Below are positions 47,001 through 53,000 of a stretch of DNA of 64,000 bases, one piece after another. Position numbers: made by a program. The stretch is taken from positions 53,025 to 117,024 of the IMG/VR virus record IMGVR_UViG_2630968933_000007. One strand, 5' to 3'. Position 1 is the stretch's first letter; the number at the start of each line of letters is the position of its first letter. This DNA comes from a virus. Taxonomy: Duplodnaviria; Heunggongvirae; Uroviricota; Caudoviricetes.

Positions 47001-50000
47001 AGAGCTGGATTCGTGGATGGAGTCCCGGATTTATCCGGTGATGAGCGATGTCCCGGCACTGTCAGATTTGATCACCAGTATGGTGGCCAGTGGCTATGAC
47101 TACCGGCGCGACGATGATGCGGGCCTGTGGAGTTCAGCCGATCTGACTTATGTCATTACCTATGAAATGTGAGGACGATATGCCTGTACCAAATCCAGTA
47201 ATGCCGGTGAAAGGGGCCGGGACCACACTGTGGGTTTATAAGGGGAACGGTGACCCTTATGCGAACCCGCTTTCAGACGTTGACTGGTCGCGTCTGGCTA
47301 AAGTTAAAGACCTGACGCCCGGCGAACTGACCGCTGAGTCCTATGACGACAGCTATCTCGATGATGAAGATGCGGACTGGACTGCGACCGGGCAGGGGCA
47401 GAAATCTGCCGGAGATACCAGCTTCACGCTGGCGTGGATGCCCGGAGAGCAGGGGCAGCAGGCGCTGCTGGCGTGGTTTAATGAAGGGGATACCCGTGCC
47501 TATAAAATCCGCTTCCCGAACGGCACGGTCGATGTGTTCCGCGGCTGGGTCAGCAGTATCGGTAAGGCGGTGACGGCGAAGGAAGTGATCACCCGCACGG
47601 TGAAAGTCACCAACGTGGGACGTCCGTCGATGGCAGAAGATCGCAGCACGGTAACAGCGGCAACCGGCATGACCGTGACGCCTGCCAGCACTTCGGTGGT
47701 GAAAGGGCAGAGCACCACGCTGACCGTGGCATTCCAGCCGGAAGGCGCAACCGACAAGAGCTTCCGTGCGGTGTCTGCGGATAAAACAAAAGCCACCGTG
47801 TCGGTCAGTGGTATGACCATCACCGTGAAAGGTGTTGCTGCAGGCAAGGTCAACATTCCGGTTGTATCCGGTAATGGTGAACTTGCTGTGGTTGCAGAAA
47901 TCACCGTCACCGACAGTTAATCCGGAGAGTCAGCGATGTTCCTGAAAACCGAATCATTTGAATATAACGGTGTGAGCGTCACGCTTTCTGAACTGTCAGC
48001 CCTGCAGCGAATTGAGCATCTCGCCCTGCTGAAACGACAGGCAGAACAGGCGGGATCCAGTCTCAATCGACAGGTGAGCGTGGAAGATCTCGTCAGAACC
48101 GGTGCTTTTCTGGTGGCGATGTCCCTGTGGCATAGCCATCCGCAGAAGACAAAGATGCCGTCCATGAATGAAGCCGTTAAACAAATTGAGCAGGAAGTGC
48201 TTACCACCTGGCCCACAGAGGCAATTGCTCAGGCTGAAAATGTGGTAATGCGTCTGTCCGGTATGTCTGAGTTTGTTGTGAATGATGCACCTGAACAGGC
48301 AGATGACGCCGGGCCAGCAGAGCCTGTTTCTGCGGGAAAGTGTTCGACGGTGAGCTGAGTTTTGCCCTGAAACTGGCGCGTGAGATGGGGCGACCCGACT
48401 GGCGCGCCATGCTTGCCGGGATGTCATCCACGGAGTATGCCGACTGGCACCGCTTTTACAGTACCCATTATTGTCATGATGTTCTGCTGGATATGCACTT
48501 TTCCGGGCTGACGTACACCGTACTCAGCCTGTTTTTCAGCGATCCGGATATGCATCCGCTGGATTTCAGTCTGCTGAACCGGCGCGAGGCTGACGAAGAG
48601 CCTGAAGATGATGTGCTGATGCAGAAAGCGGCAGGGCTTGCCGGAGGCGTCCGCTTTGGCCCGGACGGGAATGAAGTTATCCCCGCTTCCCCGGATGTGG
48701 CGGACATGACGGAGGATGACGTAATGCTGATGACAGTATCAGAAGGGATCGCAGGAGGAGTCAGGTATGGCTGAACCGGTAGGCGATCTGGTCGTTGATT
48801 TGAGTCTGGATGCGGCCAGATTTGACGAGCAGATGGCCAGAGTCAGGCGTCATTTTTCCGGTACGGAAACTGATGCGAAAAAAACAGCGGCAGTCGTTGA
48901 ACAGTCAATGAACCGGCAGGCGCTGGCTGCACAGAAAGCGGGGATTTCCGTCGGACAGTATAAAGCCGCCATGCGTATGCTGCCTGCACAGTTCACCGAC
49001 GTGGCCACGCAGCTTGCAGGCGGGCAAAGTCCGTGGCTGATCCTGCTGCAACAGGGTGGTCAGGTTAAGGACTCCTTCGGCGGGATGATCCCCATGTTCA
49101 GGGGGCTTGCCGGTGCGATCACCCTGCCGATGGTCGGGGCCACCTCGCTGGCGGTGGCGACCGGTGCGCTGGCGTATGCCTGGTATCAGGGCAACTCAAC
49201 CCTGTCCGATTTCAACAAAACGCTGGTCCTTTCCGGCAATCAGTCGGGTCTGACGGCAGATCGCATGCTGGTCCTGTCCAGAGCCGGGCAGGCGGCAGGG
49301 CTGACGTTTAACCAGACCAGCGAGTCACTCAGCGCACTGGTTAAGGCGGGAGTAAGCGGTGAGGCTCAGATTGCGTCCATCAGCCAGAGTGTGGCGCGTT
49401 TCTCCTCTGCATCCGGTGTGGAGGTGGACAAGGTCGCTGAAGCCTTCGGGAAGCTGACCACAGACCCGACGTCGGGGTTGACGGCGATGGCACGCCAGTT
49501 CCATAACGTGACGGCGGAGCAGATTGCGTATGTTGCTCAGTTGCAGCGTTCCGGCGATGAAGCCGGGGCATTGCAGGCGGCGAACGAGGCCGCGACGAAA
49601 GGGTTTGATGACCAGACCCGCCGCCTGAAAGAGAACATGGGCACGCTGGAGACCTGGGCAGACAGGACAGCGCGGGCATTCAAATCCATGTGGGATGCGG
49701 TGCTGGATATTGGTCGTCCTGATACCGCGCAGGAGATGCTGATTAAGGCAGAGGCTGCGTTTAAGAAAGCGGACGACATCTGGAGTCTGCGCAAGGATGA
49801 TTATTTTGTTAACGATGAAGCGCGGGCGCGTTACTGGGATGATCGTGAAAAGGCCCGTCTTGCGCTTGAAGCCGCGAGAAAGAAGGCTGAACAGCAGAGT
49901 CAACAGGACACAAATGCGCAGCAGCAGAGCGATACTGAAGCGTCACGGCTGAAATATACCGAAGAGGCGCAGAAGGAAATATACCGAAGAGGCGCAGAAG

Positions 50001-53000
50001 GCTTACGAACGCCTGCAGACGCCGCTGGAGAAATATACCGCCCGTCAGGAAGAACTGAACAAGGCACTGAAAGACGGGAAAATCCTGCAGGCGGATTACA
50101 ACACGCTGATGGCGGCGGCGAAAAAGGATTATGAAGCGACGCTGAAAAAGCCGAAACAGTCCGGCGTGAAGGTGTCTGCGGGCGATCGTCAGGAAGACAG
50201 TGCTCATGCTGCCCTGCTGACGCTTCAGGCAGAACTCCGGACGCTGGAGAAGCATGCCGGAGCGAATGAGAAAATCAGCCAGCAGCGCCGGGATTTGTGG
50301 AAGGCGGAGAGTCAGTTCGCGGTACTGGAGGAGGCGGCGCAACGTCGCCAGCTGTCCGCACAGGAGAAATCCCTGCTGGCGCATAAAGATGAGACGCTGG
50401 AGTACAAACGCCAGCTGGCTGCACTTGGCGACAAGGTTACGTATCAGGAGCGCCTGAACGCGCTGGCGCAGCAGGCGGATAAATTCGCACAGCAGCAACG
50501 GGCAAAACGGGCCGCCATTGATGCGAAAAGCCGGGGGCTGACTGACCGGCAGGCAGAACGGGAAGCCACGGAACAGCGCCTGAAGGAACAGTATGGCGAT
50601 AATCCGCTGGCGCTGAATAACGTCATGTCAGAGCAGAAAAAGACCTGGGCGGCTGAAGACCAGCTTCGCGGGAGCTGGATGGCAGGCCTGACGTCCGGCT
50701 GGAGTGAGTGGGAAGAGAGCGCCACGGACAGTATGTCGCAGGTAAAAAGTGCAGCCACGCAGACCTTTGATGGTATTGCACAGAATATGGCGGCGATGCT
50801 GACCGGCAGTGAGCAGAACTGGCGCAGCTTCACCCGTTCCGTGCTGTCCATGATGACAGAAATTCTGCTTAAGCAGGCAATGGTGGGGATTGTCGGGAGT
50901 ATCGGCAGCGCCATTGGCGGGGCTGTTGGTGGCGGCGCATCCGCGTCAGGCGGTACAGCCATTCAGGCCGCTGCGGCGAAATTCCATTTTGCAACCGGAG
51001 GATTTACGGGAACCGGCGGCAAATATGAGCCAGCGGGGATTGTTCACCGTGGTGAGTTTGTCTTCACGAAGGAGGCAACCAGCCGGATTGGCGTGGGGAA
51101 TCTTTACCGGCTGATGCGCGGCTATGCCACCGGCGGTTATGTCGGTACACCGGGCAGCATGGCAGACAGCCGGTCGCAGGCGTCCGGGACGTTTGAGCAG
51201 AATAACCATGTGGTGATTAACAACGACGGCACGAACGGGCAGATAGGTCCGGCTGCTCTGAAGGCGGTGTATGACATGGCCCGCAAGGGTGCCCGTGATG
51301 AAATTCAGACACAGATGCGTGATGGTGGACTGTTCTCCGGAGGTGGACGATGAAAACCTTCCGCTGGAAAGTGAAACCCGGTATGGATGTGGCTTCGGCC
51401 CCTTCTGTAAGAAAGGTGCGCTTTGGTGATGGCTATTCCCAGCGAGCGCCTGCCGGGCTGAATGCCAACCTGAAAACGTACAGCGTGACGCTTTCTGTCC
51501 CCCGTTGGGAGGCCACGGCGCTGGAGTCGTTTCTGGAAGAGCACGGGGGCTGGAAAGCCTTTCTGTGGACGCCGCCTTATGAGTGGCGGCAGATAAAGGT
51601 GACTTGCGCAAAATGGTCGTCGCGGGTCAGTATGCTGCGTGTTGAGTTCAGCGCAGAGTTTGAACAGGTGGTGAACTGATGCAGGATATCCGACAGGAAA
51701 CACTGAATGAATGCACCCGTGCGGAGCAGTCGGCCAGCGTGGTGCTCTGGGAAATCGACCTGACAGAGGTCGGTGGAGAACGTTATTTTTTCTGTAATGA
51801 GCAGAACGATAAAGGTGAGCCGGTCACCTGGCAGGGGCGACAGTATCAGGCGTATCCCATTCAGGGGAGTGGTTTTGAACTGAATGGCAAAGGCACCAGT
51901 ACGCGCCCCACGCTGACGGTTTCTAACCTGTACGGTATGGTCACCGGGATGGCGGAAGATCTGCAGAGTCTGGTCGGCGGAACGGTGGTCCGGCGTAAGG
52001 TTTACGCCCGTTTTCTGGATGCGGTGAACTTCGTCAACGGAAACAGTGACGCCGATCCGGAGCAGGAGGTGATCAGCCGCTGGCGCATTGAGCAGTGCAG
52101 CGAACTGAGCGCGGTGAGTGCCTCTTTTGTACTGTCCACGCCGACGGAAACGGACGGCGCTGTTTTTCCGGGACGTATCATGCTGGCCAACACCTGCACC
52201 TGGACCTATCGCGGCGATGAGTGCGGTTATCACGGTCCGGCGGTCGCGGATGAATATGACCAGCCAACGTTCGATATCACGAAGGATAAATGCAGCAAAT
52301 GCCTGAGTGGCTGTAAGTTTCGCAATAACGTCGGCAACTTTGGCGGCTTCCTTTCCATTAACAAACTTTCGCAGTAATCCCATGACAGAGACAGAATCAG
52401 CGATTCTGGCGCACGCCCGGCGATGTGCGCCAGCGGAGTCGTGCGGCTTCGTGGTGAGAACGCCGGAGGGGGAAAGATATTTTCCCTGCGTGAATATTTC
52501 CGGTGAGCCGGAGGATTATTTCCGGATGGCTCCGGAGGACTGGCTGCAGGCAGAAATGCAGGGTGAGATTGTGGCGCTGGTCCACAGCCACCCCGGTGGT
52601 CTGCCCTGGCTGAGTGAGGCCGACCGGCGGCTGCAGGTGCAGAGTGATTTGCCGTGGTGGCTGGTCTGCCGGGGGACGATTCATAAGTTCCGCTGTGTGC
52701 CGCATCTCACCGGGCGGCGCTTTGAGCACGGGGTGACGGACTGTTACACGCTGTTCCGGGATGCTTATCATCTGGCGGGGATTGAGATGCCGGACTTTCA
52801 TCGTGAGGATGACTGGTGGCGTAACGGCCAGAATCTCTATCTGGATAATCTGGAGGCCACAGGGCTGTATCAGGTGCCGTTGTCAGCGGCGCAGCCGGGC
52901 GATGTGCTGCTGTGCTGTTTTGGTTCATCGGTGCCGAATCATGCCGCCATTTACTGTGGTGATGGCGAGCTGCTGCACCATATTCCTGAACAACTGAGCA

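What the first reader, a model, noticed from the sequence alone, without database searches (positions are those of the whole stretch)
49952..50001. Perfect 25-bp tandem duplication inactivating tape-measure gene H
AAATATACCGAAGAGGCGCAGAAGG is present twice in direct tandem, adding 25 nt and shifting the frame, so H is split into 455-aa and 414-aa ORFs. The locus length (2587 nt) equals the expected 2562 nt plus 25. A duplication of this size is unlikely to be a sequencing artefact.
Basis: partly seen in the sequence, partly recalled or inferred. Interest (0 to 1): 0.6.

Follow-up and report, generated by a model that had tools for sequence, protein, structure and literature searches.

The report
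Draft-assembly duplication in tape-measure gene
The 25-base repeat that breaks the phage tail-length gene H is really in this sequence, but the sequence is a 2015 short-read draft of probiotic E. coli G1/2. The finished genome of the same strain and every related genome have one copy and an intact gene, so it is most likely an assembly or finishing error rather than biology.

Summary
AAATATACCGAAGAGGCGCAGAAGG occurs twice in perfect tandem at 49952-50001. The lambda-type gene H is 2587 nt instead of 2562 and is split into 455-aa and 414-aa ORFs. Deleting one copy restores an 853-codon H that is 841/853 identical to lambda gpH.

The window is contig JPKH01000024.1 of the 2015 draft of E. coli G1/2 (Symbioflor 2), made with Illumina GAIIx reads, Velvet and PCR gap closure. 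The finished genome of the same strain (CP060083.1) has a single copy and an intact H. So do its sister strains, nine independent assemblies of this prophage lineage, and all 5,426 complete E. coli genomes.

Draft and finished genome are identical over about 17 kb of unique DNA. They differ only in prophage segments:
- the exonuclease gene comes from another prophage;
- H, K, J, lom and stf are SNP mosaics;
- gene J carries a second private frameshift, a 10-bp deletion.

The best reading is an assembly or finishing scar (about 0.85). Even if the duplication were real, it would be neutral decay, because the tail-terminator gene U already carries a genuine frameshift. Interest is low.

The parts
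49952..49976 (+). Copy 1 of the 25-mer AAATATACCGAAGAGGCGCAGAAGG. This is the extra copy, absent from all other genomes.
49977..50001 (+). Copy 2 of the 25-mer. Which copy counts as the extra one is arbitrary.
48767..51353 (+). Lambda-type tape-measure gene H. It is 2587 nt as deposited and 2562 nt (853 codons) once one repeat copy is removed.
   Evidence: Pfam TMP_2 and Tape_meas_lam_C.
48767..50134 (+). 5' ORF of the split H: 455 aa, of which 403 are native and 52 out of frame.
   Evidence: This product is on record only in JPKH01000024.1.
50109..51353 (+). 3' ORF of the split H: 414 aa, from H residue 440 onward. There is no Shine-Dalgarno sequence upstream of its ATG.
   Evidence: This product is on record only in JPKH01000024.1.
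54376..54387 (+). Site of a second draft-private frameshift. The 10 bp CAGTGCTACC are missing between 54381 and 54382 in gene J, which is split into 53755-54441 and 54402-57158.
46844..46848 (+). T5 run in tail-terminator gene U, where lambda has T6. This is a genuine frameshift shared by the draft and the finished G1/2.
18303..20839 (-). Exonuclease gene segment whose sequence comes from a different prophage (the ompW-site prophage) of the same genome. It shows that the contig is chimeric.
57509..57514 (+). Empty target site in lom. The finished G1/2 genome has ISEc12 inserted here.

Best explanation
The duplication is a scar of the 2015 draft assembly or finishing of E. coli G1/2, not a mutation carried by the strain. 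The genome holds several lambdoid prophages with near-identical stretches. Velvet collapsed and mis-threaded these stretches, and gaps were closed with PCR products from terminal primers and joined by hand. That left a mosaic of alleles and two join errors in the tail genes: +25 nt in H and -10 nt in J. Shown here: the duplication is absent from the finished genome of the same strain and from all relatives, and the same contig is chimeric. Inferred: the exact step that created the scar. A 25-nt overlap or primer left untrimmed at a join is the most plausible, and it cannot be tested without the reads.
For: 1. Provenance. The 455-aa product occurs only in GCA_000768405.1 contig JPKH01000024.1. 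The offsets of three ORFs agree, placing the window at contig 53026-117025. JPKH00000000 is the G1/2 draft, made with Illumina GAIIx, Velvet and gap closure by sequencing PCR products.
2. Same strain. Finished G1/2 (CP060083.1) shows 0 differences over window 1526-18508. It shares the rare U T5 allele, which is found in 8 of 5,426 genomes and not in G6/7 or G8.
3. Finished G1/2 has one 25-mer and an intact 2562-nt H. G6/7 and G8 likewise.
4. The junction is absent from 5,426 complete E. coli genomes (with a positive control). It is also absent from GTDB representatives, IMG/VR and JGI metagenomes.
5. The contig is demonstrably wrong elsewhere. The exo segment is 98.8% identical to another prophage but about 89% to its own locus. 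The J 10-bp deletion junction is found nowhere else. The lom and stf segments match no genome exactly.
6. At 33 discordant sites in H, K and J, nine independent assemblies of this prophage lineage agree almost entirely with the finished genome. All of those covering the sites have a single 25-mer and the 10 bp in J. Only the draft differs, and at 13 of its 15 H sites it carries the common lambda/W allele.
7. All draft-versus-finished differences lie in prophage sequence that is multi-copy in E. coli genomes. H has 2 places in G1/2.
Against: No reads could be inspected, so absence from the sequenced DNA is inferred and not observed. A plain Velvet contig overlap is k-1, which is even for the obligatory odd k, so 25 nt is not the simplest expected scar. 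The repeat is not exactly at an allele switch: the nearest discordant sites are 309 nt upstream (49642) and 92 nt downstream (50093). I could not locate the second H-like copy in finished G1/2 that should have supplied the foreign alleles. The finished assembly has its own weak stretch, with many genes annotated as frameshifted in the ompW-site prophage. Perfect short tandem duplications do arise naturally, and this prophage is already decaying.
Confidence: 0.85

Rival explanations
1. Real but private mutation. The culture or DNA prep sequenced in 2015 had acquired a spontaneous 25-bp tandem duplication (replication slippage or illegitimate recombination) in H. The stock used for the finished genome lacks it. 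It would be neutral decay of a prophage already disabled by the U frameshift.
For: The repeat is perfect and in a coding region with no low-complexity sequence. U is genuinely frameshifted, so H is under no selection. Short tandem duplications are a known spontaneous mutation class (general knowledge).
Against: It needs two private indels of 10 nt or more (H +25, J -10) within 4.4 kb, while about 17 kb of unique DNA shows no difference at all. Every other draft-specific difference is explained by paralog mixing. Only 1 nt of flanking microhomology is present at either indel. No other assembly among 153 billion gene positions encodes the product.
Confidence: 0.1
2. The duplication is real in strain G1/2 and the finished genome is wrong at this site, for example through long-read consensus or polishing that pulled the locus toward a paralog.
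For: The finished assembly has a roughly 20-kb stretch in another prophage where nearly every gene is annotated as frameshifted, so it is not error-free.
Against: Long-read errors are 1-2-nt indels. They do not cleanly remove 25 nt and add 10 nt in a way that restores two reading frames and matches thousands of genomes. Across 39 kb of this prophage the finished and draft sequences agree at every homopolymer except one 2-nt site. Nine independent assemblies share the finished haplotype.
Confidence: 0.04
3. The split H is functional or regulated, through a programmed frameshift, translational restart, or a reversible on/off switch for tail production.
For: The two ORFs overlap by 26 nt. Tandem duplications can revert precisely (general knowledge).
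Against: Restoring the frame needs a +1 shift within 133 nt, and the sequence there shows no prfB-like signal. The GGGAAAA run at 50076-50082 is out of phase (read). The second ORF's ATG lacks a Shine-Dalgarno sequence. A tape measure must be one continuous chain (established lambda biology). U and, in this draft, J are also broken, so there is no tail to regulate. No other genome has this arrangement.
Confidence: 0.01

Closest known systems
Bacteriophage lambda gene H (gpH, tail tape-measure protein, 853 aa)
   Same: Same position in the operon, between G/T and M-L-K-I-J. 97.4% nucleotide identity. 841/853 amino-acid identity after repair. Pfam TMP_2 plus Tape_meas_lam_C.
   Different: As deposited, the gene has an extra 25 nt after codon 403 and is split into two ORFs. 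No other copy in any collection searched has this.
Qin cryptic prophage of E. coli K-12 (ydfJ/ynfEF region)
   Same: Same chromosomal locus and the same cargo genes: dicB, dicA/C, relBE, hokD, cspB/F/I, essD-rrrQ-rzpQ, nohA, tfaQ, pinQ, ydfK.
   Different: G1/2 keeps int, xis and a full lambda-like head and tail module that K-12 Qin has lost (from my knowledge of K-12). It is nevertheless defective through the U frameshift, ISEc12 in lom and a truncated stf.
Assembly and finishing artefacts in short-read drafts (collapsed or mis-threaded repeats, indels at contig ends, hand-joined gap-closure reads)
   Same: The feature is absent from an independent finished assembly of the same strain. It lies in multi-copy prophage DNA and is accompanied by paralog-derived segments and a second private indel in the same contig. 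Contig ends carrying insertions or deletions, and manual alignment of primer-directed reads, are described for such projects (PMC2884544).
   Different: The exact generating step is not identified. 25 nt does not equal Velvet's k-1 overlap for an odd k.
Spontaneous short tandem-duplication frameshifts in bacteria (slipped-strand or illegitimate recombination)
   Same: A perfect head-to-tail copy of a few tens of nucleotides that causes a frameshift.
   Different: Such events are usually bounded by several nucleotides of direct repeat (from my own knowledge). Here there is only 1 nt, and the event is not seen in the same strain's finished genome.

Membership tests
Lambda gpH-type tape-measure gene | Lies between the G/T chaperone genes and M-L-K-I-J in a lambda-like tail operon | tested here: met
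Lambda gpH-type tape-measure gene | Close sequence identity to lambda H, with TMP_2 and Tape_meas_lam_C domains | tested here: met
   97.4% nt identity. 841/853 aa identity after repair. Pfam domains.
Lambda gpH-type tape-measure gene | One uninterrupted ORF of about 853 codons | tested here: not met
   Split into 455 and 414 aa in the window. The feature is met in finished G1/2 and in all relatives.
Genuine spontaneous tandem-duplication mutation | Present in the organism's DNA, shown by an independent assembly or by reads of the same strain | tested here: not met
   Finished G1/2 has a single copy. The junction is absent from 5,426 genomes (control). Reads could not be tested.
Genuine spontaneous tandem-duplication mutation | Flanking direct-repeat microhomology of several nucleotides | tested here: not met
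   Only 1 nt (G) is present. The periodic stretch is 51 nt, i.e. 2 x 25 + 1.
Assembly or finishing artefact | Absent from an independent, higher-grade assembly of the same strain that is otherwise identical in unique DNA | tested here: met
Assembly or finishing artefact | Other demonstrable mis-assemblies in the same contig, confined to repeated DNA | tested here: met
   Exo segment from another prophage. Private 10-bp J deletion. SNP mosaic contradicted by nine independent assemblies. lom and stf match nothing exactly.
Assembly or finishing artefact | No read of the original library spans the junction | not testable with these tools
Assembly or finishing artefact | Scar length equals the assembler's contig overlap (k-1) | tested here: not met
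   Velvet uses an odd k, so overlaps are even, and the scar is 25 nt (general knowledge of Velvet; k is not reported in PMC4358396). A primer-length or hand-join origin remains possible: the 25-mer is 48% GC with a Tm of about 57 C.

The most novel reading that the evidence does not exclude
The duplication and the 10-bp J deletion are real and arose in the production or collection stock of probiotic strain G1/2 that was sequenced in 2015. That would show unusually rapid accumulation of medium-sized indels in the tail genes of a resident prophage, and a precisely revertible +25 frameshift in the tape-measure gene.
Probability: 0.1. Interest if true: 0.2.

Novelty: not a real feature. Interest (0 to 1): 0.06.

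Why it matters
The main value is a caution. A perfect, non-homopolymer 25-bp duplication looks too clean to be a sequencing error, yet it can still be an assembly or finishing error in an early short-read draft. The four broken products (455, 414, 228 and 918 aa) now sit in public protein collections as singletons. For the probiotic strain, the relevant biology is that its Qin-locus lambda-like prophage has an intact H and J but a genuine frameshift in the tail terminator U. That frameshift, not the H duplication, is what argues the prophage cannot make infectious particles.

Tried and rejected
1. Natural polymorphism. I searched for the junction in complete E. coli genomes, GTDB representatives, IMG/VR and JGI metagenomes and found nothing. 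The method was validated with a 40-nt positive control.
2. Recoding or restart. The frame would need a +1 shift with no signal present. GGGAAAA at 50076-50082 is out of phase, and the second ORF has no Shine-Dalgarno sequence. Rejected.
3. Simple k-1 overlap scar. 25 nt is odd, whereas Velvet overlaps are even. Not supported, and kept only as a generic join or primer scar.
4. Duplication as the breakpoint between two parental alleles. The discordant sites are denser downstream (13 in 1352 nt) than upstream (2 in 1184 nt). However, lineage-specific alleles continue on both sides and the nearest discordant sites are 92-309 nt away, so there is no clean breakpoint.
5. Locating the second H-like copy in finished G1/2 (one search reports 2 places). 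I tried the H 3' half, exo, stf and lom as baits and read two neighbouring prophages. The ompW-site and ynfG-site prophages have no close H, and the copy was not found.
6. A paper describing the finished genomes (CP060083, CP060061, CP060057). None is in the library.
7. L003 and L006 were not readable in the script sandbox. I used the alignment tools instead.
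Full report
**Observation**

The window contains AAATATACCGAAGAGGCGCAGAAGG twice in perfect tandem at 49952-49976 and 49977-50001. Tandem Repeats Finder reports 49951-50001, period 25, 100% matches. It is the only perfect tandem duplication with a period of 10 nt or more in the 64 kb, and the chance expectation is about 6e-11.

The surrounding gene is a lambda-type tape-measure gene H. It lies between G/T and M-L-K-I-J and is 97.4% identical to lambda H over its whole length. It is 2587 nt rather than 2562 nt and is split into ORFs of 455 aa (48767-50134) and 414 aa (50109-51353). Removing one repeat copy restores an open 853-codon frame that is 841/853 identical to lambda gpH. The frame breaks after residue 403.

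**Where the window comes from**

The 455-aa product is on record in exactly one place among the indexed public assemblies: NCBI GCA_000768405.1, contig JPKH01000024.1. The 414-aa ORF and the broken J fragment map to the same contig with the same offset, so the window is contig positions 53026-117025.

JPKH00000000 is the 2015 draft of E. coli G1/2 (DSM 16441), one of the six Symbioflor 2 probiotic strains. It was sequenced on an Illumina Genome Analyzer IIx and assembled with Velvet. [quoted passage not shown]

**The same strain, finished**

The closest complete genomes are those of G1/2, G6/7 and G8. Finished G1/2 (CP060083.1) is identical to the window over 1526-18508, which covers ynfF to the prophage integrase. 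It shares a rare T6-to-T5 frameshift in tail-terminator gene U. A 40-nt search finds that allele in only 8 of 5,426 complete genomes, among them G1/2 but not G6/7 or G8. So the two assemblies represent the same strain.

In the finished genome H is a single 2562-nt ORF with one copy of the 25-mer. G6/7 and G8 also have one copy.

**Nobody else has it**

A 39-nt query centred on the repeat junction finds nothing in 5,426 complete E. coli genomes. One search is the positive control for that kind of query. An exact 29-mer across the junction is absent from the GTDB species representatives, IMG/VR and the JGI metagenomes. About 120 phage records carry H at 2562 nt.

**The contig is chimeric wherever the genome is repetitive**

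All differences between the draft and the finished G1/2 fall in lambdoid prophage sequence:
- *Exonuclease gene.* Window 18303-20839 is about 89% identical to the copy at its own locus. It is 98.8% identical to the exonuclease gene of a different prophage at the ompW site, about 380 kb away in the same genome.
- *Gene J.* It carries a second frameshifting indel, a 10-bp deletion between 54381 and 54382 that splits J into 228 and 918 aa. Its junction is absent from every complete genome, and its product exists only in this contig.
- *lom.* It is intact in the draft but interrupted by ISEc12 in the finished genome. The draft's lom matches no genome above 98.8%.
- *stf.* A tail-fibre segment with 28 clustered differences matches no genome above 95.6%.
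- *H.* At 13 of the 15 sites where the draft and the finished genome differ, the draft has the common lambda/W allele and the finished genome has a lineage allele. The two agree at 26 lineage-specific sites.

Nine independent assemblies that encode the identical L protein settle which version is real. They include NCBI isolates and ENA gut metagenomes, among them a Hadza sample. They carry the finished-genome alleles at essentially all 33 discordant H, K and J sites. Every one that covers the sites has a single 25-mer and the 10 bp in J. Only the draft contig differs. The draft haplotype is therefore a mosaic that exists nowhere else. This is what bubble-popping and mis-threading over near-identical prophage copies, or PCR from mixed paralogous templates, would produce.

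**Best explanation**

The 25-bp duplication is an assembly or finishing scar (confidence about 0.85). What is shown: it is absent from the finished genome of the same strain and from all relatives, and it sits in a contig with several independent, repeat-associated errors, including a second private indel 4.4 kb away. What is inferred: the generating step.

A raw Velvet overlap (k-1) would be even for the obligatory odd k, so 25 nt does not fit that simple model. The 25-mer is primer-like (48% GC, Tm about 57 C, 3' GG). An untrimmed primer or overlap at a hand-made join during PCR gap closure is plausible but untestable here. Indels at contig ends and manual alignment of primer-directed reads are documented features of such projects (PMC2884544).

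**Rivals**

1. *A real private mutation in the 2015 culture (about 0.1).* This would need two medium-sized indels in one prophage while about 17 kb of unique DNA shows no change. Neither indel has more than 1 nt of microhomology.
2. *The finished genome is wrong (about 0.04).* It does have a poorly polished stretch in another prophage. But long-read errors do not cleanly remove 25 nt and add 10 nt so as to restore two frames, and nine independent assemblies share its haplotype.
3. *A functional split or recoding (about 0.01).* The frame would need a +1 shift with no signal, the second ORF has no ribosome-binding site, and U is broken anyway.

**What is biologically real here**

The prophage sits at the Qin locus (dicB, relBE, hokD, cspB/F/I, nohA, tfaQ, pinQ). 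Unlike the K-12 remnant, it keeps int, xis and a full lambda-like morphogenesis module. Its genuine lesions in G1/2 are the U frameshift, ISEc12 in lom and a truncated side tail fibre. Because gpU is required to terminate the tail and join it to the head (established lambda biology), the prophage is already tail-defective. A real H frameshift would therefore have been neutral decay.

**Novelty and interest**

This is not a real biological feature on the best evidence. If it were real, it would be an ordinary pseudogenising mutation in a cryptic prophage. Its value is as a curation warning.

Noticed in passing
window 54376-54387 (J ORFs 53755-54441 and 54402-57158): A 10-bp deletion (CAGTGCTACC, coding for part of ...VKQCYPN...) frameshifts host-specificity gene J. 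It is private to this draft contig: the junction is absent from 5,426 complete genomes and the product is found nowhere else. Probably a second assembly scar.
   Followed up: yes
window 46844-46848 (U, 46778-47172): Tail-terminator gene U has T5 where lambda has T6, which splits U into 87-aa and 60-aa ORFs. The allele is shared by the draft and the finished G1/2 and is present in only 8 of 5,426 complete genomes, not including sister strains G6/7 and G8. It is a genuine inactivating mutation and a handy G1/2 marker.
   Followed up: yes
window 18303-20839: The prophage exonuclease gene in the draft is 98.8% identical to the copy in a different prophage (ompW site, CP060083 2969689-2972160). It is only about 89% identical to the copy that the finished genome has at this locus. 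The contig jumps into a paralog and back.
   Followed up: yes
window 57509-57514 (lom 57229-57828): The finished G1/2, G6/7 and G8 genomes have ISEc12 (IS21 family) inserted in lom with this 6-bp target site duplicated. The draft shows a clean empty site and an intact lom whose sequence matches no complete genome above 98.8%.
   Followed up: partly
window 59002-59206: 28 clustered differences from the finished genome lie in the repeat-rich side tail-fibre gene. No complete genome matches this segment above 95.6%, and most relatives align in two pieces about 700 nt apart. This suggests a collapsed internal repeat.
   Followed up: partly
window 1-6300: The window begins in the right end of another prophage of the podovirus-type lambdoid kind, inserted into ynfG. 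It carries a giant LPD38-domain protein gene, a Panacea-domain gene, an IbrB-like and PAPS-reductase pair, and two antirepressor genes. 11 draft-versus-finished SNPs fall in the LPD38 gene.
   Followed up: partly
L004 400-21128 (CP060083.1 2925399-2946127): In the finished G1/2 genome nearly every structural gene of the ompW-site prophage is annotated as frameshifted, while the rest of that prophage is clean. This looks like an unpolished long-read stretch, so the finished assembly is not error-free either.
   Followed up: no
window 49951-49961, 49976-49986, 50030-50040: The 11-mer GAAATATACCG that starts the duplicated unit recurs naturally 54 nt downstream of the second copy. At protein level this is KYTEEAQ... 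and KYTARQ..., an internal repeat of the tape measure that is also present in lambda. It did not mediate this 25-nt duplication.
   Followed up: partly
window 16600-63000: The G1/2 prophage at the Qin locus is a near full-length relative of the K-12 Qin remnant. It has int and xis, the dicB and dicA/C immunity region, relBE, hokD, the cold-shock genes, a lysis cassette, and a complete lambda-like head and tail module.
   Followed up: partly
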